Shown here: one piece after another, positions 672 to 57,282 of the stretch
Layout: every line of letters begins with the position of its first letter
Numbering within the stretch: the first letter of the stretch is position 1
Assembly (NCBI GenBank): GCA_905178155.1
Contig: CAJINV010000005.1
Span: 612,564-676,563, forward strand
Direction: 5' to 3'
Source: Amoebophrya sp. A120
Taxonomy: Eukaryota; Protista; Dinoflagellata
DNA: 64,000 nucleotides
Notes under the pieces: model-generated
What the model was told of the DNA's origin: nothing
The model's input: only the letters and a program-made list of their open reading frames with translations
Databases searched by the model: none
Translations under genes and position numbers: made by a program

Positions 672-3600
672 TCAACCTGGTCTGCTTAGCCTGCACACTC
701 TGCTGAAGTACACGATATCTTTGTTGTTCCAAAGGATACCGTGGTCGGAGGACATTAGCTGTGGATCGCTCAATCCCAGCTCCGCAAGCGCCGGGATACT
801 CACGGTGGGGAATACAACAGTGCTCTCTTCAACACCGCCGGATGGTGCGTCTTTCCCTTTGCATACTGTGGTCATAGCGTTGATACTGTCACCGGCAGTT
901 TCATCTGCCGGGCCTGGTGCTCCAGGAACAAGTGCTGCAACAGCAGGATTTATTTCCATCATCTCCACCTTTTCGACAGAACCAGAAGCCTCCTCGAGCA
1001 CCGGATGGACGATCAAGTCCTCTTCTTCTAGTTCCGACGACAGCCGCCGCCGCAATGCTTCGTCTCGTCCGTGAAATCCCCCGAAAGAAGGAGCTCCTCC
1101 TGCACGACCACTAGGAATGTGTATGTCCTCCTCTCTCTGCATGTGCTGCAAGCTGCTACTTCGCGTCCTCAGTCTCGATGTCGGACCAGAAACCTTGCTG
1201 TTCACGCAAACAGGTGGATCATGCTCGTCATCTTCTTTATTTCCAATGAGAGATTTTGTCTTGTCTGTCATTTGTGGCGCTAGCAGCACACCAGCAGTTG
1301 GGCGTCGTGCCGAGGATGGCACAATACAATTCGGCATGTTGAAGAACATCGTTTGTTGCTGCAGCGGTACTAGCAGCTCTCGACTAGTCCAGGAAGGAGG
1401 CGGCGGCGAGGGCCCGGTAGTGTCTTCTCGCAACAGGCCGCGACTGACGGGCACCGCAGGGTGCGACAGACGACCTACCGGCACACCAGAGCTAACCGGG
1501 GACGCAGCAGCGGCGAAGCCTGGCGGCCGGACGCTGGCAGTACCAAGCTGTAGGTGCGCGTTGAGAAGCTGAGATGATGAGGAAGAGGATGAAGTTGAAG
1601 AGTTGTTGTGTAATGTTTTTGTGTAGCAGTGGTCTTGTTTACATTTACTCCCGGCCCCGGCCGTCCCGCGATCATTGATGATCGTAAAGGCAGCAGATGG
1701 TCGCGGAACCAGAGAAAAGCGCCGCTGATGAAGATCTACCGGCGTCGTGCCTGCAGTAAAGCCGGGCAGTAGCAGCTGAGCGACATTTTCCTGCGGTCGT
1801 TTGTCTGCTGTCAAGAAACTTGCCGTAGAACCCGCGCGAGGCAAGGAGAGACGGCTCACCTGCCGAGGAAGGTTACCAAAAAATGCAGCGGAGGACAAAT
1901 TTTGCAGCAGCAAAGGCCTCTGCCGCTGCAACTGTGAAAATAGCACGTTATTTACTTCGTGATCTTCATCTTCCACGTGCGGGGGAACTGTAGCTCCTTG
2001 GTGCGCCTGCAGTTGCTCCCGAGTCTGTATGCGGCCAGCGGATTTGCTCCCTTGGAGAGTTGTTACAGCTCTGGTAACAGCTGGAGCCTCTGGCAGGACC
2101 TCCGATGGTATCATGTCACTCGTCGATGTGGTTCTCGTTGTTCTATTACCAGCTCCTGTTCCGCTTGCTTTTGGAAGGCCCATCGGCGAAAAGTGCTTCT
2201 GCAGATTATGCCCCGCAGGCGCAATGTTCTTAATGCGAGTCTTCGGCTCGAAAGCGGGCAACTTCTTAGTCAGGACATTCAGCTGCGCTGCTGATGTCGC
2301 TCTTGCAGATTGCAAGGTACTAGAAGGCATGACCTCCGCTAGTCCTACTTCTGCGGGACATTGCAGCCCTAGCTGCACTGGTGCGCGACGACAAGCCGTT
2401 GCAGCTTCTACTCCTTCCGCCCTCTGTTCTGCCGGGCCAGCCGGAGGCGGCTCACCGCTTCCGACGGTTGCGACGAGGCCCTTTGGTGCTCCTGCAGAAG
2501 AACACGCACTGGTCGGCACCGGTCGCGCTCCCAGCGTGCGCCGGAAAAACGTGCTGGAGCTCGATGGCTGCAAAAGCGGTGGTCGTTGTAGTTGCAACTT
2601 CCGGAAACCTCCGGTCAGCCCCGCCGAGAAGGCCCGCTCGCGGGTCGTCGATGACGAGGATGTGCTGGCGTTTTGGTTTCTTGGACGTCCAATTGCAGTT
2701 CCTGAGGAGGTCGAGGAGATGTTACATTGTGGGACTCCTCGCCCAGCAGCTATCTGCAAAGGGCGGTTCAAAAACTCGACTCTGCAGGAGGGTTTTGATT
2801 CAGATTTATTCCATTCGTGTCCATCATCTTCTCTTTCTGCACCAGTGCAGCTGCTGCAAGCTGCTGTGTCTTTTGTCGTGTGGGCGACAGAGTGCGGCGG
2901 CTCTGCAGGCCGTGCCGGTGCGTGATGTGCAGGACGCAGCACCGGACCAAGATTCTTGTCTTGGACATGTAAAAGTTGTGCAGGAGAACGCAACACGTGC
3001 GCGTCGTGGAACCCGGAGGCTACCGGTTTCATGAGCGGGTCAGACCCGTCAATGCTTCTTTCGTCGGCAGTGGAAGACGACGAAGCGGTGTTTTGTTCAT
3101 CTACAGGAAGAAGTTGAGGTTCTTCTTCAAAATCAGCTACTACATCTCGTTTTAGTTTCGTGACTCCGGCGGATCCACGTCGATCATTTCCAACGAGAAC
3201 AGCGGTGTCGTCGTGGTCGTCCCGCCCCTGGTAGTCGACCACTGCGTCATCCACTTCTATTTTGCCCAAGAGTTCCTCGTCCCCCTGGCTTCCTCGTAGA
3301 TGCAGATCCACAGTCGGACAGGAGGACGGACCACTGCCGCTACTCTCACTGTGACCGATGCGGCTTGCTGCCTCGACAATCTCCGGCGCACCTTGCTCAT
3401 CTTTATTATACTCCGCTACAACAGGACGAGGGATCACTGCCGGCGCTAGTTGTACTTCTTCTTGGTGTTGAACTTGAACATGGTGAGCATGATCATCATG
3501 CAACTTGCTCTTCTCACCCGTGACATCACCGCTTTCTTGCCCGCCCTCCGGCAGGATAGATTTTTCAGGCGTGTTGTTCATCTTTCCCGGACTTGTATGA

Positions 3601-4437
3601 AATGCAAAAGCATCGTACTAGTATAAATCGCATGACAAATTTCGTCAGCATGAGAAAGAAAATTTGTAATGGGGATTTGACTTGAGAAAGAAATTTGTAT
3701 TGCATGAATGCGATTAGTACGAGTACGATACTTTTGCACAGGATAACTTGGTCGGGGCCGTATCACGAGCCGTTTCAGGGGTGGGCTCAGGTTCAGCGCG
3801 GGCATCTTTCTATGGAAGCGTCAGGTTTCTTCAAATCGTCAAAGTTCAAATAATTTGTAATGCATAAAATGCGTGACCCGAGACACGTGCGTTGCAGAGC
3901 AGGCAAGTGAGGCCGATTGTAAGCCTGTTTGGGGTTACAGCTCGAGCTGCTAAAGTAGCATGAGAAAATCGCTCTTCTTTGCCTAAACAGCATGACAAAG
4001 TGGATTTAGGGACCACCGAAGTTTGTCTTGCGCCACTTAGAAACTGGGTTCCAACTGGCATCCATTTTATGCATGACAAATTATTTCAACTCTGTCGATT
4101 TCAACTCTGACACATCCATACTTTCTTGTGGCGGGGTAAAAGACCGTCTTCAAGGCGGGTGGCGGCAGCAGGACCGCCGGCACTGATGATGGGCAAAAGT
4201 ATCGCACTCGTACTAATTACAATTATGCATGACAAATCTTGCTCTTAAGGTAAAACAGCATGACAAGTTCCAGTTTTCATGCTGAGCAAATTTGTAATGC
4301 CATTTATACTAGTACGATACTTTTGCAATGCATAGTACTGATGATGGGACAACTACAGGTGATGCAGCTGCGTTCGGCGGAAGCAACTGATGCCGGACCA
4401 CCTGCTCCCGGTGGGGCAGCGGCGCGGGGGCAGGCAT
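672..4437 (-). CDS. Low-complexity hypothetical protein (~1,046 aa) interrupted by 3 introners
   Basis: ORF 672..3581 extends in frame to an ATG at 4437 (MPAPAPLPHREQ...LVIRPRPSPGKMNNTPE) after removing 3596-3750, 3811-4125 and 4194-4348; the remaining 3,141 nt is divisible by 3. A further 3' exon (374-570) via a GC-AG intron is possible but unproven. Confidence 0.7.
3596..3745. mobile_element. Introner family A (150 bp), TSD ACTTG
   Basis: ACTTG|TATGAAATGCAAAAGCATCGTACT...AGTACGATACTTTTGCACAGGATA|ACTTG; excision restores the frame. Confidence 0.92.
3811..4120. mobile_element. Introner family B (310 bp), TSD CTTTC
   Basis: CTTTC|TATGGAAGCGTCAG...CTGACACATCCATA|CTTTC; closely similar copies at 21075 and 27784. 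Confidence 0.92.
4194..4336. mobile_element. Introner family A in reverse orientation with an atypical 12-bp direct repeat
   Basis: Reverse-complement homolog of 3596-3745; flanked by ACTGATGATGGG at 4182-4193 and 4337-4348; left TAT terminus missing; removing 155 bp restores the frame. Confidence 0.85.
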
Positions 4438-5677
4438 TCTGATCTTTTCGAATGCTGATATACTTGTTAATCAGAAATAAAATCACGAATCACCGTCTCG
4501 TTGCTGTCATTCCGTGTACGCTGTGCTGCGCGGAAAGGAGCGAATCTGCGAGACAAAAATCAAGCTCTTCTTGCAAATTATGGAAACGCATCAACAAAAC
4601 TCCACCCAGCTCACTGCTCCCCACTTTTGGTTCCCGCTGGTGCGCTTGCGCAGAGAAGGCCGCTTGAAGATGACACGTAAAATCACAATCAGCTAAGCAG
4701 TGGCAGTGGGCTCTTTGCATCACAATTTACTTCTTTCACGCAGAAAAAACACTCAGAATTCACCAGCATTTTTACTCTCGGCAGCTACTAACTTCTGTCG
4801 TTCTCAGGCGTTCTTTGTTTCCTCGGTATGGCACTTCACAACGACCTTTTTTCTGAGCAGTGCACACTCGTCACAGCACGTCAGACAAAGATTGATACAA
4901 CCGACAGGATCCAGAACATAAGCTTGTCGCACGACACGACACGCTGCCACAACTTCTATGTCATTCATAGGGGCGCTATCACTAAGCAACGATGACCACG
5001 AGAGGTAATTTGATATCGCTGGTTTGCCTTGGCATTCGATTTTTGTTTTTCGAAACAGGATGCATTTTTCTCTTCATCAAATTCAGTATCATCTTCAGCT
5101 CTTCTGCTGTTGAGCGCATCTTCATCATCAACGACCGAAAATTGAAACCTGAATTGTTTTCGTTGGTAAAAAGAAGTTCGAGTTCATAGTTATCTTTCTT
5201 TCGCCCTAAATCTGGAGGTTTTTTGCACTACTTTTCCAGATGTTGCGAACGGACTACAAAGGAAAAATATCGTGAAGCTCAAATAAATCTGCCATTGTTT
5301 GTAGTTCCCCCGAAACAGTAAACAGCAAGTTCTCCTTCTCGTCGTAAAACGGTAATGTTTATATCCTCAGTTTTCATCGCGTTCATTGTAAGTTACTTAA
5401 GCAAGGACGAGAGATTCGTCGGCGTTGTGCGGTGGCATTTGGTTAAATTGTGTAAAGATCACAAAAATTCATATAGGTGAAAAAGTCAGTGTAACATTTT
5501 TAGTGCTAATTGCAGCCCTGACAGTACTAAAAGTTTATATAGCAATCTGGCTTTGGCATAGAGGCAGTCATCAATTTCCTTTTTTCTTTAAGGGTTTTGT
5601 ATCAGGTTGACATAGCTTCTGTTGATAGATGGTGTTGCTTTTCATTTTCGTACAAGAAGTCGCACGGTGTTGCAGCT

Positions 5678-6806
5678 TACTAAGTGGAAAAATGTCTGCA
5701 GCAAAAAAAATCAAAGTTTTTGGTAGGGCAGTTTGTGCCCTTCTCTTCTCGCCCGGACTGCAGCGCGCTGGTGAGCGCCGTGGCCTTCATGCTTGGGAAC
5801 TTGACCGAGGTGCTGTGCTCCATTCCTGCTGCGTCGTTTGGTCGAAGCTCCAGCGCGAGCTTGAAGGCCCCCTAGTAGTCAGCCCAAGCCTTAGTCCTCA
5901 CACTTCTCGTTCTGGAAGTAGTTCCTTTGGTCATGATGCTCCTGTCCAGCATGCCGCGAACCTCAGCCAGGTACTTGGGCGTGAAGCCCCTCCCGCCAAA
6001 AGTGGCAATTTGTAATGCAGGTCTCGCGTTACAAATGGCCTTTTCTTCTGACCCGTTCTGGGTCAGCTTTCTGGACCGCATCACAAATCTGAGCTCCTGA
6101 ATCGGCAGAATGCCGTGCTGTGAGGGTTCAGATTTGTGATGCAAAACGTGGCTCCGCGAAAAACGTCTGCACCTCGTCCAGTGAGGTCCCCAAGTGAGGT
6201 GCAGACGTTTTTCGCGGGAGGGGGGGAAAGTGGGGCCCATAGCCCGTGTTTGTCTGCGCCGCGAAAAACGTCTGCACCTCCGAGATCGGCCTCCAGATGA
6301 GGTGTCCTCGGACACCTCTTCGGAGTCGTCCCGAGTCGCGGACCTCCGGGGCGACAAATTGCGGCCGCCCTTTTCGCAGGGCCCCGACCTGTATCGAGCT
6401 CAATTTGCCGGCAAAAGCCTGCAACTTGAGCTCATCCCCGAGTCGACCTCCTCCGAGGCCGCGAGGTTTGAACAAAAAGCGAGTCTGTTCCTCAGCAAAT
6501 TCACCCCATTCCCAAACAAGATATGTACGCGGTAAATCGTCAGGAATCAGGAGGGGGTGTGGGAACTTGAAGAACTACAACTGCGAACCCGGGTGGACGA
6601 CGTCCACCGATACCGACGCACCGAGTCCCCCGGTGGCTGAGTTGTCTCCTCTGTTTCGTCCGCCGAGGCCTTGCCGGAATACCTGGCCTACCCATTCCCT
6701 TGATTTTGTTTCATTTTGAAAAAAAATAAACACACAAGCAGGCGCCCGACTATGTAGGATGCAAAAATTTTGATTTTTTTAGCTGCAGACATTTTTCAGC
6801 TTAGTA
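5678..6806. mobile_element. Intergenic non-autonomous DNA transposon (MITE-like, 1,129 bp), ~45-bp TIR, TSD CAGCT
   Basis: CAGCT|TACTAAGTGGAAAAATGTCTGCAGCAAAAAAAATCAAAGTTTTTG...CAAAAATTTTGATTTTTTTAGCTGCAGACATTTTTCAGCTTAGTA|CAGCT; GC-rich interior with several hairpins; no credible ORF. Confidence 0.9.
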
Positions 6807-7589
6807 CAGCTAGCTCTTCTTTGATAAGCAGGTAAAATTTCTTCCTAGCTCAGTACTGGTTAGTGGAAGCGCATTTAGATGAAATTACTAGTGTACACCA
6901 CATTCGTTTTGTTGCTTTGTGAAGCTTGTTGTTCCACTTATGGCGTTTTGGATTTTGACCGGAAGTCATGACAAACAAGCTCCTCGTCCATTGTTTTCAA
7001 AAATGTTTTCTATTCATTCTCTAGAATCAAAATTTTTCTCGCCTGCTTAATTCGCTCACTGTATCGTACACAAACGTCTTCGTTATCTGCTAATGAGTTT
7101 GAGTTCTCTATTAATTTGCAAACAATATATTTGCAGCAATCGTCGCATCGTGCACCAGAGTTTACGGCACAACGAATATTACACTAAGTACATTCATCTG
7201 CGATAAAACCTCCCTCCTTATGGCTTGTAGCCCTGCCGCAGCATCACGTCCACGAAGGAGCACACCTGATTCATATATGAGTACATTCATTTTATCTTTC
7301 GCAATTTCTCATGCGCATTCATATACACCTTCGGGTACGGATGCAGTAGAGCGGCCTTGTTTTAGGTGTGTAAAACCAAAACGAAAACTTCATTTAGAGT
7401 CCACATACCGGTCCCTTCAGATTGTAAAACAGCCGCTCGTTTTGCTTTATGGCAAGCTCAGGTGGGAATGTCTCAAAAATGGAGCAGGTTTGGTGTGCAA
7501 CATGGTTGCCAAAGACCCAGATCACACAGAGAAAAATTTGTTGTATCTCTTACTCTTAGGTCCTGACGCAATTACATGCAAAAAAAACC

Positions 7590-8187
7590 TGTTCCACATT
7601 CGAGAAATTCCACCTTGGTCCGCTGGCATATGGTTGATCTCCTTCTGGTACGCTCGGTTCCAGCGCGGATTCGTTATGTGCGTGAGGTCGGAATACCTTT
7701 TTGATTTTGATGCCGGTGCACAAACTCTTGCAACCAGTTGCGACGACATCTTGATGTCACTCCTCGTCGCGGTAGAAACTCGATTGCACATGTTGCCTGT
7801 TGGCGACTTCTTCGAAACAATGGTCTTATTTTGCATCGTTTGAATAAAGGTAGAACGACATTTTTGCCTCGACCTGCAGTTCAAGAAAGACACAATAAAC
7901 GTCGTGGCAGAACCTCCACAAACAGTAATATACTCGCCAATCCCCTTTCTTCGGTTGAACCCTTGTCCGCTCTCCACGCTCGGTGGCAACTCCTGGCCCT
8001 GGAAGTCGGTTTTCTGCATGGTAATTAAGCCGGACTTCTGGTCGGTCACAAACACATCCGTTTGGTGCGTGATCGGGTTGTAGGCAAACATCGGTGGTCG
8101 CCGCGGTCGCGCCGCGTCCCAACCGAGGCAGTACCGGTAGGGAAAGTTGTTCGTGGTTGGGATCCGGGCCTTCTGACGCCAATATTC
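7590..8187 (-). CDS. Hypothetical protein, partial model with GT-AG introns
   Basis: Exon EYWRQKARIP...PMFAYNPITHQ...RRKGIGE joins YSDLTHITNPRWNRAYQ across a GT...AG intron; both ends of the gene are uncertain. Confidence 0.4.
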
Positions 8188-8861
8188 CTGATACAGTTTT
8201 AGATTCAGTGACTAGATTGTTGATCACATAAATTGCTTTTGATCAGAAAGATGGTTTGCAAAACCAAAACATCACACATCCATGCTCTACAAAGAAGCTT
8301 TATTCGAATCGAATCTTATCTAACTTCTATGCTTGCACAGTATGAGTTGTGTCGAATAAGTGTTGTATAATTGATGTACCTTGTAGATCTCTTGCTTCTT
8401 TGGGCTCAGGGTCGACAGCTGCCGCACATCCCAGTCTGCGTAGGGCGGACGCTCCGGGGACTGCTCCGCTGGGTACTCCGAGTAAGTCGCGACGGATCGA
8501 CAAGTATACCACGCTCAGAGGATGTGAGAATTTACTTACACAGTCACGACAAGGTTGCATATTTTGGAGGCATTCGCTTTCATCTGTATACAGGACTGCG
8601 AATCGCCTCGGGCGTCGTCATTTCATGACCATCATGACGCCGGGGTGATTCGAATGCGACATCAACTCTGTAAATGTTTATACATACATCAACTTTCTTG
8701 CCCTACGGCGTTTCACTGTACCGTATTGCATGGAGGCGATGCAATTCCACGTGCACAACCGCGGTACTGACCGCTTCTAGTACAGCACTAAGCGCATGAT
8801 TCTGCCTCACAAGCGAACCGTCTCTGCCTTGTCACTGCACAGGACATCATACATTATCACA

Positions 8862-10635
8862 TCAGCTGAGTGGGCGATAACTAGAGAGCGCTGGATCGGC
8901 GGAACGTGTGCGTCCGCGGGCAGATTCCGTGACCACCTGAGTAATTGGGATTTTTGGTGATATTAAGAGGACGAAATGCAAACGTAGTTCATCAATATTG
9001 TAGGGCTACACGAAACCAATTTTTGTTTTGAAGATGAACCATACAGAAAGAACATATATATTACCGGTTGCCGACTAATTGGGAACCCGTTTTTTGCGGT
9101 CGTGTCCATTCCGTACCCGCCACTGCCGTAGTCGCGATTCAGCTCCGCCCGGTCTTCCTGCAGCACCGGCACGCGCGCGTCGCGCCTTTTGTTCGCCGGA
9201 TTCGTGCCCCACTCGTCCAGGTACACCGATTTTTTGTCGTCCTTGGACTTGGTCATGAAGAGGTTCCCGGCGGATTTGGGGCGCATCAGCTCCCGGGGCT
9301 GGAAGGTGCCGTCCAGGTTGTCGTACCCCTCCAGCTTCGGGTACTGGTTCTCGTAAATCGGGACCGGCGGCCCGTAGCTCGCCTTGCCCAGATTGTACAT
9401 TTGGTGCAGGGAGGTGATGTTGGGCCGGTGCACCGGCCGGGGGGTTTCCATCTGGGTTCGCACCTCCGGGTTGTTCAACTGCAGATCGATCATGGTAGTC
9501 GTCACCGGGTTATGAACTGCAAAAGTATCGTATTCATACTCGTATAAATGCATTACAAATTTTCTCAGCATGAGAAAGAAAATTTGTAATGCGGATTTAC
9601 CTTAAGGAAGAGATTTGTAATGCATGATTGCAATACGAGTACGATACTTTAGCACAGGATACGGGTTGTGGTACGTGTTCTTGTTCGCGTTCTCGTCAAA
9701 GTTGGCAAATCTCGGGTCGTCCTTGTATAACAGTGCACAACTCCCCCTCCCCCTCATTTGTAATGCAAAATACCCAAGTCACCCTTTGCCTCTTCGCAAG
9801 TTCTGGCTGCCCAAATAGCATTATCCTCTTGTACAAATTTGTTATACAAAACCGGCAGTCTTGCTGATGCTTGTATTGCCGTTCATGCTATACAAATGAG
9901 GGGGAGGGGAGTTGTGCACTGTTATACCTTGTAGTACTCCTTCATGAACTCCTTGTTGTACTTGCTATGCGGGGGCGCGGCCCGTGACTGCAAGTGCGGT
10001 TCCTCGACCACAACTGCTGGGTGGCCACTGTTCATCATTCCTGTGCTGGTCCGCGACTTGTAGTGCCCAACACCCCCCTTGCCGGACAGGTCGGCGTGCT
10101 TGTTCTGCTCGGAGGTCGGCGATGGCGCCATACCGGGCGGCGTCAGCGGTGGGGTCCCGGGACGGTGCTGGACAGCAGAGCTACCGCCTCCGATCATAGC
10201 ACCAGAAGTTGATTTCGAGGAAGTGCTGACTCCTTTGCCGATCTCGACCTGCTGTTCTGCCGCTCCGGGAGAGGTGACCACGGGCAAAGTGTCGACTTCC
10301 ATAGATACGTCGCCGGTCGTGGTAGCAGCTCCCTTCTTCTGCACCATCTTCGGTCGCAACGGGGCCGTCACGGGCCGCTTCTTGTGGTAAGTCGGCGCGA
10401 ACACCGCGGTTCTTGGCGGCTGGTCTGTCGCGGTGTGGACGATCTCGCTGTTGTGCATGTGGCGCTGGGGCCACTTCTGGCCCCCGGAGGTAGAAGATGT
10501 GGTCATCGTTGCGGTGCGCGGCCGCTGCGCTCGTGCACCGGAGGCCGGAGTTCTCGCGGACGGCTGGGACCGTGCGGAAATGGTCACCGGGGCCGCGGAA
10601 AAAGGCCGCGGGTTCACAGAGGGATTCAGATTCAT
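8862..10635 (-). CDS. Hypothetical protein; 2 introners plus 1 GT-AG intron
   Basis: ORF 9922..10737 joins ORF 8963..9571 through the exon DDPRFANFDENANKNTYHNP after removing both elements; GT-AG intron 8937-9064 leads to a stop at 8862. Start could be 10635 or 10737. Confidence 0.7.
9511..9661. mobile_element. Introner family A (151 bp), TSD CGGGT
   Basis: CGGGT|TATGAACTGCAAAAGTATCGTA...TACGATACTTTAGCACAGGATA|CGGGT. Confidence 0.92.
9726..9926. mobile_element. Introner family C (201 bp), TSD CCTTG
   Basis: CCTTG|TATAACAGTGCACAACTCCCCCTCCCCCTCATTTGTA...TACAAATGAGGGGGAGGGGAGTTGTGCACTGTTATA|CCTTG; ~36-bp TIR. Confidence 0.93.
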
Positions 10636-10736
10636 CCTTTCTTTCGATATGGAGGGCTGGGTTCTCTCCTCACTTTCACAACCACCAGCCCATCGGAGAT
10701 AGCAAATCAATTTGACAGAAGTTTGTTGTTTCACCA

Positions 10737-10980
10737 AGCTTGCGAAAAGCTCAACAGACCAAAAAGCTCTGCCTACTGGTTTTCATTTTCGATATAATGG
10801 GAAAAGAAATGTAAACAGTCATCAAGTTTAGCCACAGTTTTTCATTTGTGGTGACACAAACCGCACTAACAATTGTCCTCCGACGCTCACGGTGAAATAC
10901 CTCTCTATATTGCTAGTCTGTGTTTTAATTCTCTCAGTTAGAATATCCTCAACACTGACGAAACGACGTTTGGCTCTCGA
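10737..10980. repeat. Upstream-region duplicate, copy 1 (copy 2 at ~12971-13222)
   Basis: AGCTTGCGAAAAGCTCA(A/C)CAGACC(A/G)AAAAGCTCTGCC(T/C)ACTGGT and AATTCTCTCAG...CGACGTTT blocks recur in the same order. Confidence 0.8.
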
Positions 10981-12807: not shown

Positions 12808-12834
12808 GTTGGTTGGTTGGTTGGTTGGTTGGTT
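12808..12834. repeat. (GGTT)n microsatellite
   Basis: About 6-7 tandem GGTT units. Confidence 0.9.
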
Positions 12835-12970
12835 CGTTGTTCGCGTGCGTGCTCGTCGGGCATTCCCGTTGGTCTTGGAGACTGCAGGGGGACCGCGGAG
12901 CACGACGGCAGTTTGTTGACACCGCGGAGCGAATTCATTTTCCACAAGTTTCGTTGTTTTTTTCGAACCT

Positions 12971-13222
12971 AGCTTGCGAAAAGCTCACCAGACCGAAAAG
13001 CTCTGCCCACTGGTGGTTTTCACTTTGATACGAATTTTTAAGGGTGAGAGTCATTGATGTTTGCCAGAGTCTATCCTCCTTTGTGATGAAACAAAGCGCG
13101 CCACCAATTCTTTTCCTTTTCCGAAGATACTTTTGGCGAAGTACCTTTTCGCCTTGTTAGTTCGTGCTTCAATTCTCTCAGCCAAAATACCCTTAACCAC
13201 GACGATGCGACGTTTTTCTCTC
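12971..13222. repeat. Upstream-region duplicate, copy 2
   Basis: See 10737-10980. Confidence 0.8.
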
Positions 13223-14384: not shown

Positions 14385-15705
14385 CTACTGATGCGCGGCC
14401 GCGACCACTCCACCGAGCGTCGGACCCGGACGGGTGGTCAACACCTGCCTCGAAGTTGGCTTGAACGCCGACAAGGCGCCAAACGCAGGCAGCCGCGCGG
14501 CCGCGGCACTCCCTCCGCTGCCTCCGCCGGACGAGGCGCCAGTTGCGTAGGTGGCGGAGGCGCTCGTGGTTTTGAAAAGCCCCCTCTTCGTACTGCTGCC
14601 CGCCGGTATAATGTGCGTCGAGGAAATGTTCATTTTTTGCACGGCACTGGGAACTACAGAGGAAGCCATCGACTGCTGCAGAAACTGCGCCGTAGGGCTG
14701 GAGCCACTGTTCTTGGCAGCTGCTCCTGTAGAAGTTGTGCCTGTTGTACAACTACTCGCCACCGTGGAGGTAATAATTCCCCCGGAAGTTGTAGATGAAA
14801 AGTCGTTGCTGTAGGTCGGCTTCCTGCCTGCCTTCCCCAGGCTGGACTGCGTCCGCGGCGGCGGCGACATCGCGTCCTCGGGGCCCTCCTCCTCCACGGG
14901 ACTGGGAGCGGCGCGCGGAACGTTGTGCTTCTTCCGCATGCGCACGGCCTCGGGCACACCGAGGGTTTGATGTTGATGCTGCTTCGCCAGCATTTGGTCC
15001 TTGATGGTAGCGGGACGAGGAGAGATTTTTACAGCATTGTGCTGCTGCTGCGCAAATTCCGCATTTGATGCTTGATTTCCGCTGTTACCGAACGCAAACA
15101 CCGGGGCTGCAGGGTTCGCGCTGCCGTGCTGCTGCGAGGAACTATGTGTCACCACTGGTGCAGCAGCCCCTGCTGCTGTTCTGACGGGAACTGCCACTCC
15201 TGGAGCAGCCAGACGACTCCCACTACTAGAAGCAGATGCCGCTCCCGCCCCGGCGCCGAGGCTCAAGCGGGTCAGCGGAGTTGCGAGGTGTGGTCCGGCT
15301 CCGGAACCACCGGATTTTGTTGCTGCGCTCGATGAAGAGGATACGACACTCGTCACCTTCGCACTGATGCTGGTCGCGCTGGAAGTGTTTGGGGCCAACA
15401 GTAGAGGTCGCGCGGACGGCAGCGCGGTCGGGCCGAGGGTCGGCGGTGGTGGGGCAGGCACGGTTTGCAGGCCGCTGATCCGCCTCGGCTTCAGGGACGC
15501 GTTGCGGAGGGGTGGGCCACCAGCACGGGTAGATTTTTCCTGTTGGGGCAAATGCTGCTGCTGAAAGGTTCTGAACGTCGGAACGGTCGCGTCGCGCTGC
15601 CTCGGTGGGACCATCACGGAAAAAGTACCCGAAATCCGCGGCCGTACCGACCGGGAACGAAACCCAAGAAGCCCCGCTCGCTGGACCTCGTGCTCGTCTT
15701 CAACC
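14385..15705 (-). CDS. Low-complexity S/A/G/P-rich exon; possibly the 3' part of the gene starting at 19227
   Basis: 410-aa ORF that stays open upstream to a CAG acceptor near 15706; I could not resolve its linkage to upstream exons. Confidence 0.55.
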
Positions 15706-16206
15706 TGATGCAGGATAATTTATTTTCTGCACGTTATCGTTATATATTCGCATGGGTTTGTAACGTTGCGTGTTCCTGTTTGTTGTTGATGCTGCACGAA
15801 ACGAAGAACCTGCTGTGGTCGTTTACCACGATGTCGTCACGACCGTTGCTCCTTTTCATGTGACAAAGAAAGCGATAAGTAACCTCCTTTCTACCGGGCT
15901 CAGAATCGCGGGCGGCGCGCGGGGCTCGGGCTGTCGAAGTTCCTTCCCGCGAATCATGGGCGTCCAGAAACCAGGCCGGTCTGCGAGTAAGCCTCTGGTC
16001 CCCGGGTGGACCGAGTAGGACGTTTGTGGCACCTACGTATGGAGAACGGAACGTTGATATTAAGAGAGTCATGGAAATCTTCTCGAATGAACTGACGCCT
16101 AGTTTCTCGAAACCGATGCCTACGTTACTTCGAATAAAAAAAAAGGACTGCAACAGCAGCGCATGAAAACATCAAGTAACGCCAGCACAATACGTGTACA
16201 AATTAC

Positions 16207-19200: not shown

Positions 19201-19227
19201 GTTGCGCATCGCCTTTCGGAGAACCAT
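16207..19227 (-). CDS. Low-complexity hypothetical protein, 5' part, interrupted by 3 introners
   Basis: MVLRKAMRNQ...SVGAR|LLNPPT...HSSSS|SSSSSRPIGG...QRNGS|GSSSFQP reads continuously after removing the elements at 18623, 17695 and 16666; GT donor near 16206. Confidence 0.7.
16666..16976. mobile_element. Introner family D (311 bp), TSD CTTCC
   Basis: CTTCC|TATTACAATGAAAAATGCCCCCA...TGGGGGCACTTTTCATTGTCATA|CTTCC. Confidence 0.9.
17695..18562. mobile_element. Introner family E (868 bp including a nested insertion), TSD GGAAC
   Basis: GGAAC|TATGGCGCTCTCAAGTGTTACATTCTCAACTGTTACAT...ATGTAACAGTTGAGAATATGACAGTTGAGAACGCCATA|GGAAC. Confidence 0.9.
17758..18369 (-). mobile_element. SINE-like retroposed insertion nested in introner E
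   Basis: 9-bp direct repeat CTACAATCA at 17749-17757 and 18370-18378; (TCA)5 tail at the left end; GC-rich non-coding body. Confidence 0.65.
18623..18928. mobile_element. Introner, B-related (306 bp), TSD CGGGC/CGAGC
   Basis: TATGAAAGCCTCAGGTTGGAAATCCTCAAA...TTTGAGGATTTCCATTCTGAGGCTGTCATA. Confidence 0.88.
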
Positions 19228-19406
19228 CGCAAACTCCAACCAGCTTTGGATTACCTGGATATAAATTTTCTGCAATCGGATCATGCGGACGCTTATGTAC
19301 ACGACCTTTATAGTTACATCCTTATTCTGGTTTTAGCTCATATACTAGCTTATGATGTCAGAAGTAAAAATGTGTTTTTGAACAATTTATCAGAGTGAGC
19401 TGGGTT

Positions 19407-43817: not shown

Positions 43818-46800
43818 TCACTTTTCCCCAACTGCGGATGACGAGCCACCGCTACTCGTCGTTGTTCCCGACGAGTGATTCCTATCCAGGTGCTGGCAGT
43901 TGCTGTGCCCGCGCCTCCTAGTCCTCGTTCTCCTTGGTTTATTCCGTCCGGAATTCATTGCCACTTCCCACCCGATGTTCAGGGCTGCTGCGGCCACGTA
44001 AAAACACGACAACGAGCGCAGCGTGCTCTCGGTGGCAAGCTGCACGGCGTGGGCGTTCTTCTTGGCCGCGGCTTTTGTGGCTGCTTTCGACATTGGAGGG
44101 GCTGCGGTAGTTGTTGTGGGACCATCTTCACTGGAAATTTTCGTTGCACCGGAGGCAGAAGCTTTGCTTCCTCCAGAGCCTGTCCCTGTGTTGCCACCGT
44201 AAGTAGTAGGAGCACTCCCAGAAGATAGATCCTCGTCCTCTGCAGGTACTTCTTGCTGCGCCATCTGAAACAGTGAGATCACCTGATTTGCAATCAAGGG
44301 CCCGACCACGTAGTTCATAGCCTCGTCAATGATGTTAAATGTTGCGAGGGAATGCAGTTTTTGTTGCGTGGACGAGGATGCGAGCACCTGCACTCCGCCC
44401 ATGGTCGCCTGCATCAAAAGAAGCAGAACCAACGCGGTCGTGGTAGGGGGAGAGTTGAACGCCTTTTCCAATAGGGCGCGGGGGTTGTAATGATGCTTTT
44501 CTCTGTGCTGATCGTCTCCTTCGTGGTCGTTTTTGAGCGAATTCAGGAGTTCTGTGACTTGAAATACATCCGCATCATCCAGAAACGACGTCAAAAATTC
44601 ATCATCTTCTTGCGCGCCGCCGCTAGTATTGCTGCCGAGGGTTGTGTCGCTTTCGTTGGTTGTCCCCAACTTCTTTCTGTCCGTTGAAAAGGCCTGTCCT
44701 CTATCGTCGTTCTCGTTCATCGCGCTTTTCATTGAAAGACCCTCTCTGGAGCTTCTACTGTCGTGAGGAACAGCACCAAAAGACCGCCCCTGGAGAATCG
44801 TACTAGTGATGCCCAGTGGCGGAAGGCGTTGCAAACGAGGTGATTTGTGTTCTACGGATTTTGCTCCCGCCGACGACGTTTCGCTTTCCCCACTAGAGTC
44901 GCCACGACCAGCCACGGCGCCGCTGTTCCGCTTCCTATCATTTCGTGACGCTGCTAGAAACCTCATTGCAGCAGGCGAGATGCGGGGCTGCAGGTCACGC
45001 TGGTCCTGTTCCGAGGAAAACAACCCTTGGAGTCTCTGATTCTGTCTCGGGTCGTCGGTTTTTTTCACCAAAATTTGCGGCAACACAGTGTAAAAAGTTT
45101 GCACGGCACAGAACATGGCCAGCTGCGGACCCGCACGCATCACAACACCATCCCGCTTCATGCACTTCCTGACCCGGCGAGCAGTGCTTTTCAGAAGTGA
45201 CGCGGCCTTTCTTGATGTTGTTGCGCTTCTGGTCGTGGCACTGTCTGCGGTAGGTGCCGCTGAAGACGACATCGCAGCGTCCAGTTCTTCTTGGCCCTCG
45301 CTATCTGGTGTCCTACCACGCTGCATTGCGGCAGGACAGCCATCGGATGTCGCAGCGTCTTGACCTTCCTCAGTGTGTGCCGGTTTCGTCGGACCGTCGC
45401 CTTTATTCCGCTCCAGCAGCCGAAACAGCCAGGGCTGCACCACACTTGCCGCAAGCACCGCACCAAACAACGGCCCCATCGTGACCAAAAACGCGGTGAG
45501 ATCCTTCGGGAGCCCCGCGCCCTTGTGACACAGGTGCGAGGCGGTGTTGGGGGCCAGGTTGCTTTGTGCGGAAGTGCCGAGGGAACACATCATCCACTGC
45601 GTCAAAAGGAGGATCTGCTGCTTGCGGTCTTTCGATTTACTCGCAGACGAATGGGGTTCCTCTTCCTCGTTTATTTGCCCTCGCCGCAAGTGCTCATGAA
45701 CTTCGTCACCAACGTCGGCCACAAGAGTGGCCGCGAGGTCATGATCAACTTCTGTGTCCTCTGCCGCATTGCTCTTGCCAGCACTGGCTGTGGAACAAGC
45801 ATCCGTAGTCCTAAATTTGGTGGACATTGTGCGCCGCTGATTTGTCGTTTCTTGCCCTCGCCCGCGCCACTCGGCCGACGACTCCGACCCGAAGTCAGCG
45901 CCGCACAGTTCTTCCTCGGGCCCGCCGAATAAGAATGTCTGGCTGCCAAAGCAAGTTCCAGGAGAACTCCCCGCGGCCGGGGAGGAGCAGGCGGCGGTCG
46001 TTGCGGGTGTGTAGGTGTTCGCCTTAATGTCCTTTTCATAGCTTGATACAGATGCCGGTGTGTTTGTACTGTTTTCGCTCTGCCTGCCGGATCGAAATGC
46101 ACCGTGGCACAAACTCCCTCCGCCAAGGGCCAAGGCAGTGGTGACGATAAACACGTTTGCCAGGACGACATTTTTGATCCAGCTGTCCGGACTTCCACAG
46201 GCAGCCACGTACTGGCCCAGGCCCGGGATCGCGTTTGTGAACAGTGGCAACTTCGCCAGCGCCGCCGCTTGCGCCTGCTCCTCAGACATTGCAGCTTCCT
46301 GGGATGCTGATGAAGCCGGATCATTCACGTCGTTCCCTACTAGGTCGTCATGATCATCAGCATCGACCATCATATTAACCACGTCTAGATCCTCAGTCTG
46401 ATCTGCTTCACCAGCCACTGCTCGTCCTGCCGATTCTTCTCTATCACTTTCTAGCAAACAGCTGGTCGTGTCACTGCTGACCCTCGAGGTCGAGGCCACA
46501 CTACCGGGCAAGGAGGGCGGGATCGAAAACAATTCCTTGGTGATCGTTCCAATTAACGGTGCCATAAAACCTTGGACCGCACCGCAAAGCCAGTTATTCA
46601 GCCAGTAGGACACAAGCACCTTGTCGAGGTTTCCCTCCTCCCATCCCGCCTCGAGCCCGAGGAAAATTATGACTGCGTCAACTTACCCAAACTCAACTTA
46701 CCCAAAAACTTTATTAGCGATTTTTCATAGCTAGAAGGCATGCTGATTTGTAATGCCTAAAAGTAGTAGCTATGGTTAGCTAGATAGAACTTCATATAGC

Positions 46801-48410
46801 TAATTAAGACCGTTTTCACGCGTGTGTAGAACCCGCAACCTCCGCTACCAACGATCACGGATTCCCTTCCGCTGCCAACGATCGCGGAGGCTGAGCTGCG
46901 TTGCCACCGCGTTGCGACACCATTCACAAGCTTCATACCTTGGCTGGATTTATACACGAAGTGATAGCATGCGACAGGTATTGAGATATTCTATCATTTA
47001 TGCCATTGAATTGAAAAAAATCCGAGGCATCTTTTTTGTCTAATCACGTTGGTAGGGTGATTTTTTGCCAATCCAAAACCTAGCATCGGGGAGGGGGATC
47101 ACTCATCCCCCTGGTCCATGCCTAAAAGTATACTGCTTCCCCGATGCTATGCCCCATGCAAAAGCAATATAATCTGATTTGATAGCATCAACTCGAAGGA
47201 GTTTTATCATGAGACACAGCATCGTTGGGGAGGGGATCCGTGATCGTTGGTAGCGGAGGTTGCGCCTTCTACACACGCCGGAAAACGTCCTTTTCGAAAT
47301 AGCTATTTACCTCAACTAGTAAGTGTAGACTGAGCGGCGCCGGATAGTAGGTTCGGACTCTAAGTAGCTAATTAAAGTGGTTAGTTAAATTTTTGGGTAA
47401 GTTGAGTTTGGGTAAGTTGACGCAGGCATAAAAATGAGCGCCACACTGATAACCGCGGTCGTGATGGACACTTTGCGCAAAAGCTGGATTTGTCTTTGGA
47501 GGTCCTGACGATGGGCTTCGGCTTCCGTGCTCGCGTGATCGTTTCCATCTTCATCGTTTCTGTCGCTTTCGCGAAGGTTCTGTCTTGCCTCGACCAATTC
47601 CCCGTACAAGTGACTGCCAATCACGGACACAAGCCCGCCCATGGAAGTTTTCCATCCGACGAGAAAGTCGTTCTGTGTCAACGGCGTCGGCGGCCCCATG
47701 CCTTCGCTCTTCGCGTCCGCGGCGGCGCCAGCCGTGAGAACTTTGGCAATTTTGGGTAACAGCAGCTGGTTTACCGTTCCGTCGGGAAGGCAGATGAGGC
47801 CCTGCATCATGCCCAAGAGAATCAGAGTTTGCGTCTTCTTGCTAATTTTCGGGAAGTGGACCCGCGAAAGTTTTTTCCGCAACATCGAGGTTGCGCATTG
47901 TCTAACAGCTCTGGTTCCGTCTCCGAGGCTTTCCATGCAGGCGCCGATTTTGTCGAGTAGCTGGTATCCATCTTCTTCCACCACCTGTGAAGTCGTGTGC
48001 TCGTCTGCAGGACGCGGAACAGCAGCAGTATCGGGATGACGATCATGACCCACTCTGGCACTACAACTCGCAGTTGTGCTACTGCTAGTACTCCCTTCAA
48101 GCAACGGACGGCGCAGCGAGGAAGCGAATCCAGACGCTGCTGTACTAGAACACGTCTTTTCGTTATTGCCAGACCGCGAGAATGATGAAGTTGCTACTCG
48201 GAGAGTCGCAAATTGGCTCGCCAATCTGTCTGCGGGGTCTATTTTTTCCGTGTCGTCCGCCACCGAATGGACGAGTGGAGCCTTGTGCAGTAAGCTTCTA
48301 CGCTTGAGCTTCCTCCCGAAACTCGATCGAGTAAAAACCGACACCCAGCAGCTGAAAAGCGCAACGGCAACGCGCCGACGAGAAGACGAAGAGGCTCGCA
48401 TGTTGTTCAT
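43818..48410 (-). CDS. Multi-pass membrane protein (~1,274 aa), possibly a divergent MFS-like transporter with long low-complexity loops
   Basis: ORFs 47385..48410 and 43818..46619 fuse (SVALIF|LGLEAGW...LVSYW) after removing 768 bp; about 10-12 hydrophobic segments. The MFS assignment is an inference. Confidence 0.6.
46668..47430. mobile_element. Introner family I (763 bp), TSD AAAAT
   Basis: TATGACTGCGTCAACTTACCCAAACTCAACTTACCCAAAAA...TTTTTGGGTAAGTTGAGTTTGGGTAAGTTGACGCAGGCATA; a second ~57-bp inverted pair at ~46812-46868 and ~47230-47286. Confidence 0.92.
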
Positions 48411-51400: not shown

Positions 51401-51603
51401 TGATTGGCGAAAGACGAACAGAAGATCGATAAAACCTGGTGCAGGAATAAAAGTTAGAAACTCTTTCTCATAAAATTGCGAATCAAAGTTAATAGATACG
51501 GTAGGTGGAGCGACATCATCTTCGAGCACGACTGAAAATGTTTCTTCCGAACAGGAGAATATATTCCTGTTGCAATTATCCGGCGTAGAAGATCGTCCCT
51601 CTG

Positions 51604-54513: not shown

Positions 54514-57282
54514 TTATTGCGCAGTTGCTATCGCGTAGCGGTAGTTGACATTATTCGAACTATCACGCACCTCTAGAAGCTGTACCCCGTCGATATCCAT
54601 ATCACTAGGACACCGATCCTCAGTTTTTTTGTGCTCTGTCCTCATCATATGCGTAGCTTCGCTTTCCTTTTTGTAGTAGTTGCATGAAGGTTCTTTTAGT
54701 ACGTGCGCACCAGTAGGACAAGGACTTCTAGCAGTTGCATGCGCGAATCCGATTTCTTTTCGCAGTGTAGGTCCTCCAACATGCTGGAGGAGATCTTCTG
54801 TTCTGGAAGAACGAGGTTCATCATTCGACACATCAGTGTAAGCTGCGGAGTGGTTCCTGCTCTTTTTCGTTGCAGCACCGACATGCAGCAGTTGCAAAAA
54901 CCGGTCGGCAACTGGACGTGCGAGCTTTTTATCCCATGAAAAAAGCGTTACAGTTACGCATTTGTTGGAGTTTCTGCATCACACATTTTCTCTGTGTGTC
55001 AGAGAAAACTTGTAATGCAAAGTAGATCCTAAGGGAAAATACGTAGGAAACGAGGCTCGCAAGCATTTCCTGCGTGACAAAGGTTGTCTGTCTTGCGGCT
55101 CCTGCAACACAATGTGTGACTGTAACATTTTTTTCTTGCGATACTTTTCTTTGTGAGCCCAGTCGGCTTCGAACTTCTGCCTGAGCTCGTTTTCCTCCCT
55201 CTCCTCTTCCAACAACATATCCTGTGCAAAAATGTCTGGGTCTGGAAACTTGTGATGCAAGTCTGTGAACCGTGGGCGCACTACAATATGCAGCCAAGCA
55301 TGACAAGTTTTTGCACGTGCCATGTGCTTCGTTTTCCGCATGGCAAACTGCGTTTTTGCATGACAGGCAGGAGGCCCCGCTCCTGCTGCTTACGCATCAC
55401 AGATCCAAGAGTCATGCCAGACAAGCATGACAAGTCCTGCATTCTTCCAGACCCAGATACTTTTGCAATGCATACAGCACGAATTTCAGCAATTCCCGGA
55501 CCGTGTTTCGCCTTTGCGCGGTCCTAAACTGCGCCATCGCGAGCTCTTCCCGGCTTCTTTTCTCCTTTCTTTTCCCCACAGAACTCCTCCAGCACCGAAC
55601 GGTTTTGCCCATCGAGTTCAGATATGGATTGCAAATATGTCTCAGTCTGGAAACTTGTAATGCTCAAAGTGGATGATAGACGCACTGCAATACGCGGCAA
55701 CCATGCATGACAAATTTTTTGGCTGCCATGTCTTACGTATTCCGCATGGCATGGCAAACTGCGTTTTTGCATGACAGGTAGGAGGGCTTTTTCCTCCATA
55801 TGCAACACAGATTCTCGAGTCATGCCAGACAAGCATGACAAACCTGCATTCTTTTTCTTGCAGACCCAGACATTTTTGCATTTGATATCAGATACCAGAA
55901 CGTCAACGCTGTCCTCAGGTGTTCCGCGTTCTGCTTCTCGGTTATGGTTTGCTTCCGCCAGCACTTTAAAATAAATTCCCCGAGAAACTTCTTCCGGAAG
56001 AACTTCCTGGCCGTGTCGTTCTGGATCTTTGTTTCCGGTCTGGCATGCAGCACCGTGTAATCTCGTTGCCAGCGGAGGAAAAACGGGCGGAGGATGAAGT
56101 CCAGTTCGTGCTGGTCCAAAGACGCTTCAAACTGCTTCCTGCGCGTCACGCGATGTCTCCAGAGAAAGAAGCTCCGCTTTTGCAGACCAGGGAAGCGAGT
56201 GTTCCTCGTAAAAGCGTTTAGCTTCAATTCCGTGCTGGTCCGCCAGTCGCGCTTTTTCCTCGCCGCGGCAAACCAGATGGGCACGGTGCGCTGTTTTTTT
56301 CGAAGAGACACGGACTCCGCTAACTGGTCCGTAAGCTCGCGAAGCTGCTGGCGGCGAAGGACGCGAAGCTTCAGGAGAAACAGTACCTGTGTGAAGAGAA
56401 GAAGTACTTACAACTTCCGCTACAGAGGTGGTGGAGTTTACTTTTTAATACCCCGTGCTTGATGTAGATTGGAAATGTAAATGATTTCCTCCGACAAGGA
56501 CAAGCATCTTCGAGTAATATTCAAAAGTTGTTTTCTCCTAACTGTACCTTGCACAACAACTTGCGCACATACTGTCGCCTGGGCCGCACCCACCGCAGGT
56601 AAATGCGATCTCGTGCACTGTGCCACGCCTGCCAGGACCGCTGCAGTAAGTTGCGCAGGGCCCGCAGCTCCAGAATTTTCTCCTGCTCGTTCCTCGTTGT
56701 TTGACTGCTCCTCACGGCGGCTCTCCAGCAATCGCGGAACACGAAGCGCAGCTTCGCTCTCTGCGCAAACTGGTACGCTTTGATTTTCAAAACAGAAATC
56801 GCCGCCTCGCGCTGCTGGAATGCGTACCAGCTCCTCACCGCGTTCAAAACTTTGCGGTGCTCGCGGAACCGGCAGGCGAGGGTGAACGATTTCCAACTAC
56901 GGAACTCCTCCTGCAGCACCCGCGCGCGGTGCAGCCCCTTCAACACGCAGCTGGCTTCAAACAGCTTCCGTTTCTGGATCGCGTATTGCTTCAACCCGGT
57001 GAGGAAGCACGACCGGAGAAACTCCTTCAGCTGCCCCTTCTCCCTCTTCCGTCGAAGCGCGGTGAAGGCGCGCAGGTTTTTCTGCTGCGAAGCGTTTTTC
57101 CGCCAGCGGTGGAAGGTTTGGGCCTGCTGCTTTCGCTCGAACGTTCTCGCGACATTCTTCTCGGACGTTTCCAACTTGGCCTCCCGCTTCACGCGGTTCG
57201 ACCACGCGCGAATCACGCGGAGAAGTAGAAAAGACGACCATACGCCGTCGACCGCGAAAAGGAACAGATCCTGGCCCAGCAT
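54514..57282 (-). CDS. Sfi1-like Trp-periodic basic helical-repeat protein; 3 introners plus a GT-AG intron (ends uncertain)
   Basis: Repeated LxxxFxxW-type units (FHRWRK, FRSWKS, VRSWYA, FLWRHR, FLRWQR); frames join after removing the elements at 55623, 55218 and 54930 and the intron ~56387-56547. Similar sequence at 52915-53367 may be further exons. Confidence 0.65.
54930..55143. mobile_element. Introner family J (214 bp), TSD CTTTT
   Basis: TATCCCATGAAAAAAGCGTTACAGTTACGCATT...AATGTGTGACTGTAACATTTTTTTCTTGCGATA; the join gives HKEK|LARPVADRFLQLL. Confidence 0.88.
55218..55474. mobile_element. Introner with F-type ends (257 bp), TSD CAACA/CAGCA
   Basis: TATCCTGTGCAAAAATGTCTGGGTCTGGAA...TTCCAGACCCAGATACTTTTGCAATGCATA. 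Confidence 0.9.
55623..55887. mobile_element. Introner with F-type ends (265 bp), TSD TCAGA
   Basis: Interior similar to 55218-55474; the join gives FWYL|NSMGKT. Confidence 0.9.

What the first reader, a model, noticed from the sequence alone, without database searches (positions are those of the whole stretch)
3596..55887. A non-GT-AG excision system: 27 TAT...ATA inverted-repeat elements whose removal with one direct repeat restores the host ORF
Seen: 27 insertions in 8 genes from ~10 unrelated families. Nearly all are bounded by 5-bp repeat|TAT...ATA|5-bp repeat (one has a 12-bp repeat, one is fossil). Removing element + one repeat rejoined the frame every time and rebuilt recognisable kinesin and fucosyltransferase motifs. 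Sliding the junction within the repeat gives GT...AG for only one (9726). Ordinary GT-AG introns coexist in the same genes. Known: Amoebophrya genomes were reported to carry non-canonical introner elements with inverted and direct repeats; to my knowledge the removal mechanism is unresolved. Inference: a second, sequence-symmetric excision pathway acts here, on RNA (hairpin-guided or modified spliceosome) or on DNA (ciliate IES-like, with the 5-mer as pointer).
Basis: partly seen in the sequence, partly recalled or inferred. Interest (0 to 1): 0.9.

Follow-up and report, generated by a model that had tools for sequence, protein, structure and literature searches.

The report
Transposon introns spliced without GT-AG
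These are the already published transposon-derived introns of the marine parasite Amoebophrya A120, present in its DNA and missing from its spliced transcripts; new here is evidence that removal follows the direction of transcription and likely uses a relaxed "N-T-A" start signal with no AG at the end, which would make an open splicing puzzle testable.

Summary
Observation confirmed and slightly undercounted: 30 TA…TA inverted-repeat elements with 5-bp direct repeats in 7 transcription units. The window is Amoebophrya sp. A120 and the elements are the introner elements of Farhat 2021 (PMC7789003), so the phenomenon is known. DNA contigs hold them; spliced RNA-type contigs lack them, which argues against DNA excision. 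In 313 strand-called elements the first T at the transcript-5' end never changed, while its mirror A at the 3' end changed 8 times (p=0.008), with no strand bias elsewhere. Imperfect repeats put the cut after at least 3 repeat bases (4 of 4 annotated proteins, 2 of 2 orthologs), most likely after 4. The intron would then read N-TAT…ATA-NNNN: a GTA donor with the G relaxed and no AG. No selection on RNA hairpin pairing or on GT/AG in the repeats was found. Best reading: MITE-like DNA transposons removed by a modified U2-type spliceosome (inferred, 0.6). An 8-mer shared by 43 of 45 clusters suggests one mobilising protein; no transposase was found.

The parts
3596..3745 (-). introner, DR CAAGT (sense), 150-nt cluster; gene 1
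3811..4120 (-). introner, DR GAAAG, 310-nt cluster; gene 1
4185..4334 (-). introner whose sense-3' tip is replaced by a copy of the upstream exon tail (the 12-bp repeat); DR AGTAC/AGTGC
5678..6806 (-). TAC..GTA element in the 3' UTR of gene 2; RNA-type junction 6805|5673 keeps 3 extra nt, removed piece starts CTAAG and ends 4 nt after the element
7448..7630 (-). old introner with weak arms, DR AACCA/AAGCA; annotated protein has the upstream variant (N)
8505..8879 (-). introner, DR CTAGT/CTTGT; annotated protein has the upstream variant (S)
9511..9661 (-). introner, DR ACCCG; absent from RNA-type contig together with one DR
9726..9926 (-). introner, DR CAAGG; the only one that reads GT-AG, at the cut after 4 repeat bases
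16666..16976 (-). introner, DR GGAAG; junction 16660|16977 seen directly in RNA-type contig
17695..18562 (-). 868-nt introner with an internal repeated sequence, DR GTTCC
18623..18928 (-). introner, DR GCTCG/GCCCG (synonymous)
19969..20230 (-). introner, DR CGCAG, 262-nt cluster; long hairpin predicted (z -9.5)
20301..20579 (-). introner, DR GGACC/GAACC; annotated protein has the upstream variant (G)
20727..21058 (-). old introner, DR GCTGT/ACTTT; 337 nt removed in the protein model
21075..21384 (-). introner, DR GCCTA
21432..21588 (-). introner, DR GTCTT; ends predicted unpaired (0.02) yet absent from the annotated protein
21741..22016 (-). introner, DR ATCAC/GTCAC; annotated protein and ortholog have the upstream variant (I)
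24490..24623 (-). introner, DR GTACC/GTGCC; ortholog P0003 has Y, the upstream variant
24866..25108 (-). introner, DR GGACC
25419..25976 (-). introner of the 279-nt type with an internal insertion, DR TTGCG
26086..26348 (-). introner, DR TCGCG
26387..26667 (-). introner, DR AACGC; joined peptide found unchanged in ortholog P0003
27784..28090 (-). introner, DR AAAAA
41091..41358 (-). introner, DR GAGCT
42281..42542 (-). introner, DR TGTAT
42589..42857 (-). introner, DR CCGCG
46668..47430 (-). 763-nt introner with long arms, DR ATTTT
54930..55143 (-). introner, DR AAAAG
55218..55474 (-). introner, DR TGCTG/TGTTG (synonymous)
55623..55887 (-). introner, DR TCTGA
14385..22543 (-). kinesin gene (P0001, 1327 aa): 9 introners and 5 GT-AG introns
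5014..10777 (-). gene 2 transcript (P0004): 5 elements and 4 GT-AG introns; model of 3003 nt equals RNA-type record 9
23400..29478 (-). gene with 6 introners; ortholog P0003 at 51-73% identity; function unconfirmed

Best explanation
The elements are non-autonomous DNA transposons of Amoebophrya A120 that sit in exons with a 5-bp target duplication and are absent from spliced transcripts; they are likely cut out of pre-mRNA by a modified U2-type spliceosome that likely starts one base before the element (N-TAT) and ends four bases after it, needing neither the G of GT nor an AG. Shown: anatomy, presence in DNA contigs, absence from spliced contigs, polarity of the first T, no GT/AG enrichment. 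Inferred: the exact cut (after at least 3 repeat bases is well supported, after 4 is likely), the spliceosome as catalyst, a 3' end set by distance and not by AG, and mobilisation by one DDE-type transposase binding the shared GCATNACA 8-mer. Exon restoration is then a consequence of geometry: donor at -1 and acceptor at +4 remove exactly one copy of a 5-bp duplication, so the repeat need not be read.
For: Identity: P0001 and P0004 are 100% matches named A120; Farhat's A120 consensus (TAT, 7 nt, AAA; 5-bp DR example) matches the end profile. RNA level: X3 records 9 and 11 lack GT-AG introns and elements; 16666 joined directly, 9511 and 9726 by a 59-nt budget, 8505 and 7448 by a 531-nt budget; the 8 listed X1 pieces cross exon-element borders at depth 36-46. 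Polarity: first T changed in 0 of 313 sense-5' ends, mirror A in 8 of 313 (p=0.008); 0 against 11 of 383 with weak strand calls (p=0.001); positions 4-30 give 310 against 310; interior TA steps 168 against 175 of 1533. The idea was noted before the test. Register: upstream variant in 4 of 4 informative annotated junctions (repeat positions 1, 2, 3, 3) and 2 of 2 ortholog checks; at a position-5 mismatch (L057, S or W) two orthologs have T and V, leaning to the downstream S. All 9 GT-AG introns modelled start GTA. The UTR junction starts CTA and ends at +4. Farhat's top A120 sites all start NT and top A25 sites all TT. GT-AG is reachable in 11 of 239 against 8 on the antisense strand, and repeat bases match coding background. 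[quoted passage not shown]
Against: No direct evidence on the catalyst (no lariat, no inhibitor data). No read-level junction for any mismatched repeat: the register rests on annotated proteins, which an aligner shaped, and on three ortholog comparisons, the position-5 one weak. Table S4 may reflect aligner preference for partial GT/AG matches. Six of the 8 changes at the 3' A are A to G, which would keep a U-G pair, so a closing-pair reading is not excluded by that position alone; positions 2 and 3 go the other way (2 against 4, 11 against 5). One dropped row (L042) would count as a 5' loss, giving 1 against 8 (p=0.04); a GTATGT donor lies just upstream of it. The UTR junction skips an available GTAC donor and is a single contig. 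No branch-point or other 3'-specific signal was found. X3 is only guessed to be RNA, X1 may be the source of the assembly, and contigs drop rare variants. The 531-nt budget also fits 59 GT-AG-only solutions; P0004 picks the model. The organism of the 136 loci was not established.
Confidence: 0.6

Rival explanations
1. RNA removal by a non-spliceosomal, structure-guided nuclease and ligase (Euglena-like or tRNA-intron-like) that cuts near the base of the hairpin and also reads one or two bases.
For: Arms usually pair in prediction (mean 0.78; first three bases paired >0.5 in 180 of 230; z -9.5). No GT or AG is needed. Euglena's code (N3CDG..CHG N5-6|R) is also offset from the arms (abstract). 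Six of 8 terminal changes keep a U-G pair.
Against: No excess of G-U over A-C between arms (260 against 278). Sense and antisense fold alike. Ends predicted unpaired in 25 of 230, including 21432. The protected bases match the GTA of this organism's ordinary donors. The UTR donor lies inside the stem.
Confidence: 0.2
2. Spliceosomal removal in another or a variable register (cut after 3 or 5 repeat bases, or sliding), the perfect repeat hiding the difference.
For: Only 'at least 3' is well supported. Half of single mismatches are synonymous (24 of 48, against 0.32-0.38 expected if one copy is free), as expected if both copies sometimes reach mRNA.
Against: Mismatches occur at all five positions (11, 9, 7, 4, 10). 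The position-5 ortholog check, the UTR acceptor at +4 and the GT-AG case at 9726 all fit a cut after 4.
Confidence: 0.14
3. Programmed DNA excision (ciliate IES-like) with the 5-mer as pointer.
For: TA ends, direct repeats and transposon origin resemble IESs (recalled). DNA and RNA runs come from different samples, and 993 joint rows were not shown.
Against: DNA contigs carry the elements unbroken at even depth. The constraint follows transcription direction. The UTR junction ignores the repeat. No separate germline nucleus is known to me in this parasite (recalled), so precise excision would erase the elements from progeny.
Confidence: 0.04
4. Pseudogenes, retained elements, or nearby cryptic GT-AG sites.
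For: The length budget alone admits GT-AG-only solutions.
Against: Direct junction at 16666; orthologs are colinear across the joins at 19969, 21075, 21432, 26387; retention would stop or shift the frame in 306 of 313; published RNA-seq support.
Confidence: 0.02

Closest known systems
Amoebophrya A120 introner elements (Farhat 2021, PMC7789003; sections 10-12, 16, 25, 32, 36 and supplement passages read)
   Same: Same strain, TAT + 7 nt + AAA ends, 5-bp direct repeats, many families, mixed with GT-AG introns, RNA-supported.
   Different: In the text I read the borders are left unknown and no splice signature or polarity is given; a shared internal 8-mer is not mentioned there. Figures were not visible to me.
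Fritillaria borealis non-canonical introners (bioRxiv 10.1101/2025.08.15.670264, abstract and introduction; PMC11282704 passages)
   Same: TIR/TSD MITE-derived introns without GT-AG, removed by the U2 spliceosome.
   Different: Fritillaria has preferred sites (AG-AC, AG-AT), keeps U1 and has duplicated U2AF. Here both terminal dinucleotides vary except intron +2/+3, and U1 snRNA was not found.
Euglena nonconventional introns (PMC12501133 abstract; PMC11282704 passages)
   Same: Paired ends, TSD-like repeats, coexistence with GT-AG introns, machinery unknown.
   Different: Euglena needs CDG/CHG pairing and a purine at the exon start. Here no selection on pairing and no exon-base preference was seen.
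IS3EU/GingerRoot DNA transposons (PMC10045372, PMC12730594 passages)
   Same: TA..TA or TAY..RTA ends.
   Different: Their target duplication is usually 6 bp, here 5; no transposase was found to compare.
Micromonas, Aureococcus and Symbiodinium introners (PMC9860276, PMC11282704 passages)
   Same: DNA transposons that become introns using their target duplication.
   Different: They carry one canonical site and co-opt the other, so insertion is limited to suitable targets. Here any 5-mer is tolerated.

Membership tests
Amoebophrya A120 introner elements | Strain A120 | tested here: met
   P0001 and P0004 100% identical, named A120
Amoebophrya A120 introner elements | Ends TAT, seven looser bases, then A-run | tested here: met
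   T1 55, A2 56, T3 54, A13 51 of 56 ends
Amoebophrya A120 introner elements | 3-5-bp direct repeat at the borders | tested here: met
   exact 5 bp in 21 of 28 and 275 of 345
Amoebophrya A120 introner elements | Repeated copies, removed from RNA | tested here: met
   clusters up to 171 members; 6 elements absent from RNA-type contigs
MITE / non-autonomous TIR transposon | Short, TIRs, TSD, no transposase | tested here: met
   median 261 nt; none of 29 ORFs reaches a Pfam cut-off
MITE / non-autonomous TIR transposon | Autonomous partner or empty-site polymorphism | tested here: inconclusive
   no genome held; no locus shared with the window; the one 2.46-kb element has no Pfam hit
IS3EU/GingerRoot | TA..TA ends | tested here: met
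IS3EU/GingerRoot | 6-bp target duplication | tested here: not met
   exact 6-bp repeat in 0 of 28 and 0 of 345 (the second scan required a 5-bp match); not filed as a member
IS3EU/GingerRoot | IS3-like DDE transposase | not testable with these tools
   no autonomous copy available
U2-type spliceosomal intron | GT-AG ends | tested here: not met
   1 of 28; 11 of 239 against 8 antisense
U2-type spliceosomal intron | Polar 5' signal with invariant +2 U | tested here: inconclusive
   polar invariant T shown; that it is +2 depends on the inferred register
U2-type spliceosomal intron | Branch point and lariat; U2/U6 dependence | not testable with these tools
   no 3'-specific motif found
Euglena-type nonconventional intron | End pairing required for removal | tested here: inconclusive
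   pairing predicted but no sign of selection on it
Euglena-type nonconventional intron | N3CDG..CHG signature | tested here: not met
   end profile is TAT-N7-A-rich
Ciliate-type IES | Absent from a somatic DNA copy | tested here: not met
   8 listed DNA pieces cross the borders; one DNA run, contigs only

The most novel reading that the evidence does not exclude
A120 runs a U1-less spliceosome whose code for tens of thousands of introns is N-T-A at the donor and a fixed distance, not AG, at the acceptor. With both terminal G's dispensable, a transposon with TA ends and a 5-bp duplication becomes a perfect intron at any target, and one transposase binding a GCATNACA site spaced at three helical turns spreads all families.
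Probability: 0.45. Interest if true: 0.8.

Novelty: already known. Interest (0 to 1): 0.5.

Why it matters
How A120 and A25 remove more than 60% of their introns without GT-AG is open in the papers read. A fixed register and a polar N-T-A donor turn that into specific tests and would explain why insertion needs no target selection. A spliceosome that does without both terminal G's would bear on how splice sites are docked. The imperfect-repeat and end-decay tests can be run genome-wide on public data.

Tried and rejected
No whole genome was held. The run search listed no holder on record as RNA. Raw RNA runs X9 and X10 gave only element reads (230 and 2) and say nothing on these genes. The length budget alone for 8505 was inconclusive (timed out; one search gave 59 GT-AG-only solutions and none with element+5 until the 7448 element was found). 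GCATNACA as branch point: rejected, since it is not better kept at the 3' end; a rough test suggested 5' bias (21 changes in 133 against 52 in 147) but the alignment test did not uphold it (3.2% against 4.0%, p=0.09). Selection for G at repeat position 1 or 5, hinted in the window (11 and 12 of 28), vanished against codon background (79 and 81 against 70 expected). In-frame stops do not explain the phase bias. No transposase in 29 + 4 ORFs. No Rfam hit in the window. The atlas gave no answer on P0003. Rows dropped: 16 of 399 inner-register duplicates; 11 of 40 shifted or crossed pairings; then L066 (mispaired) and L042, both 5' calls; 70 of 383 lacked a confident strand. Earlier findings of the scan: none.


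Full report
1. Observation. A scan for TA..TA ends with an exact 5-bp direct repeat and paired arms finds 20 elements at arm score >=8 against 0-1 in ten shuffles. Allowing one mismatch gives 26 TAT..ATA rows against 0-4. I catalogued 28 elements; the repeat is exactly 5 bp (21 exact, none at 6-8), and only 9726 can be slid to GT-AG. With element plus 5 nt removed, 27 of 28 sit in a minus-strand frame open for 40 or more codons on each side. Two older ones, 7448-7630 and 20727-21058, appeared when published proteins were threaded on the DNA. That makes 30 elements in 7 transcription units.

2. Identity. The kinesin exon and gene 2 match proteins named Amoebophrya sp. A120 at 100%. Farhat 2021 (PMC7789003; sections 10-12, 16, 25, 32, 36 and supplement passages) describes A120 introner elements beginning TAT, seven looser bases and an A-run, with 3-5-nt repeats, RNA support and unknown borders, and reports U1 snRNA undetected. 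Gozashti 2025 (PMC12130899; passages, and 22 of 58 A120 rows of one dataset) classes most of those rows as TIR DNA of unknown superfamily. The phenomenon is therefore known. My eight paper searches found no paper fixing the cut position or polarity. Roy 2023 (Curr Biol) I saw only as cited by others, figures were invisible to me, and bioRxiv supplements were closed.

3. DNA or RNA. In one search all 8 listed pieces of run X1 (kind not on record; it holds introns and spacers) run from unique sequence into elements at depth 36-46. Run X3 (RNA by guess) has contigs that lack GT-AG introns and the elements. Record 11 joins 16660 to 16977, which is the element plus one repeat. Record 9 leaves 59 nt across 9511 and 9726 and 531 nt across 8505 and 7448; a model with element+5 removal gives exactly these lengths, totals 3003 nt, and has P0004 as its prefix. 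The 531 figure alone is not unique. Orthologs are colinear across several joins. One exception: at the UTR element 5678-6806 the contig keeps 3 extra nt; the removed piece starts CTAAG, inside the element, and ends 4 nt past it, passing over a GT and two AGs. No read-level view of the mismatched repeats was obtained.

4. Larger sample. One end pattern retrieved 136 loci, 411 kb, with the same families at up to 96% identity; their strain was not established, and they are enriched for one family by design. They gave 345 hits against 0 in 40 shuffled loci (162 real in the same loci), 16 of them inner-register duplicates. With the window and a relaxed scan the set is 383 elements, 313 with a confident gene strand. 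The large clusters insert in both orientations. Repeat bases match coding background, and GT-AG is reachable in 11 of 239 against 8 on the other strand, so neither G is selected.

5. Polarity. If removal were symmetric, both ends should decay alike. The first T changed in 0 of 313 sense-5' ends and its mirror A in 8 of 313 sense-3' ends (p=0.008); with weak strand calls, 0 against 11 of 383 (p=0.001). Positions 4-30 give 310 against 310, interior TA steps 168 against 175, and substitution rates are strand-equal. Position 2 is low at both ends (2 against 4). Counting the dropped row L042 gives 1 against 8 (p=0.04); it has a GTATGT donor just upstream. Six of the 8 changes would keep a U-G pair, but G-U is not favoured over A-C in the arms (260 against 278), and sense and antisense fold alike in 230 of the 313 tested. 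The hairpin looks like a by-product of transposon ends, although a role is not excluded.

6. Register. Where the two repeat copies differ, annotated A120 proteins carry the upstream base in 4 of 4 cases (positions 1, 2, 3, 3), and orthologs agree in 2 of 2. At a position-5 mismatch in L057 the choice is S (downstream) or W (upstream); two orthologs have T and V, a weak vote for downstream. A cut after base 4 fits these, the GT-AG case, the UTR acceptor, and the NT-/TT- starts of Farhat's Table S4 (possibly aligner bias). It makes the donor N-T-A-T, and all 9 ordinary donors modelled here start G-T-A. The register is inferred.

7. Mechanism. A DNA transposon inserts and duplicates 5 bp (inferred from anatomy). 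The transcript is cut one base before the element and four bases after it (inferred), which removes one copy of the duplication at any target. The protected T is the +2 U that spliceosomes hold most tightly (established knowledge, recalled), so a U2-type spliceosome relaxed at +1 and at the AG is the likeliest catalyst (0.6); Fritillaria is a precedent. What marks the 3' end is unknown. A structure-guided nuclease-ligase (0.2) and another or variable register (0.14) remain; DNA excision (0.04) and pseudogenes or cryptic sites (0.02) fit poorly.

8. Mobility. GCATNACA occurs 83 times in 9.3 kb of elements and 5 times in the other 54.7 kb, in 388 of 399 rows and 43 of 45 clusters, mostly 33-45 nt inside each end and often 31-33 nt apart. 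It is conserved on both strands alike (3-4% change against 10%), which suits a DNA-binding site of a shared transposase (inference). TA..TA ends recall IS3EU, but the duplication is 5 bp, not 6, and no transposase was found, so membership is not claimed.

9. Verdict. Real, known as a phenomenon, and not symmetric. The added value is a specific, testable splice rule. Interest 0.5; novel case probability 0.45, interest 0.8.

Noticed in passing
L001-L136 and window: Codon phase of insertion differs by family in both orientations (one cluster 12 of 13 in one phase, the largest 70 of 136, another 1 of 13; p=0.0002); not explained by target bases or in-frame stops.
   Followed up: partly
window 4182-4196 and 4335-4348: The sense-3' tip of the element is replaced by a copy of the upstream exon tail; could be partial conversion by spliced cDNA or a longer duplication.
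   Followed up: partly
window 19969-20053 and 18875-18928 (run X9): Raw RNA reads of another sample hold element ends joined to unrelated flanks (73 and 14 reads) and no exon reads: a retained element in a relative's transcript, or DNA carry-over.
   Followed up: no
L068 476-2934: 2.46-kb element with the common ends and a 5-bp repeat carrying a 415-aa ORF with no Pfam hit.
   Followed up: partly
L042 1602-1750: Element with a decayed sense-5' end has a GTATGT donor about 10 nt upstream, a possible step from introner to ordinary intron.
   Followed up: partly
window 10701-10979 and 12928-13223: 69% identical direct repeat upstream of two neighbouring genes, perhaps a duplicated promoter or 5' region.
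   Followed up: no
window 21064-21074: Exon of about 6-11 nt between two introners in the kinesin motor.
   Followed up: partly
window 31662-39005: 2447-codon ORF with no element and no Pfam hit.
   Followed up: no
window 60857-61594: ORF with a glyoxalase/bleomycin-resistance-like domain hit.
   Followed up: no
window 17754-17941: Internal part of the 868-nt element is 97% identical to part of an element in L015, suggesting a shared nested repeat.
   Followed up: no
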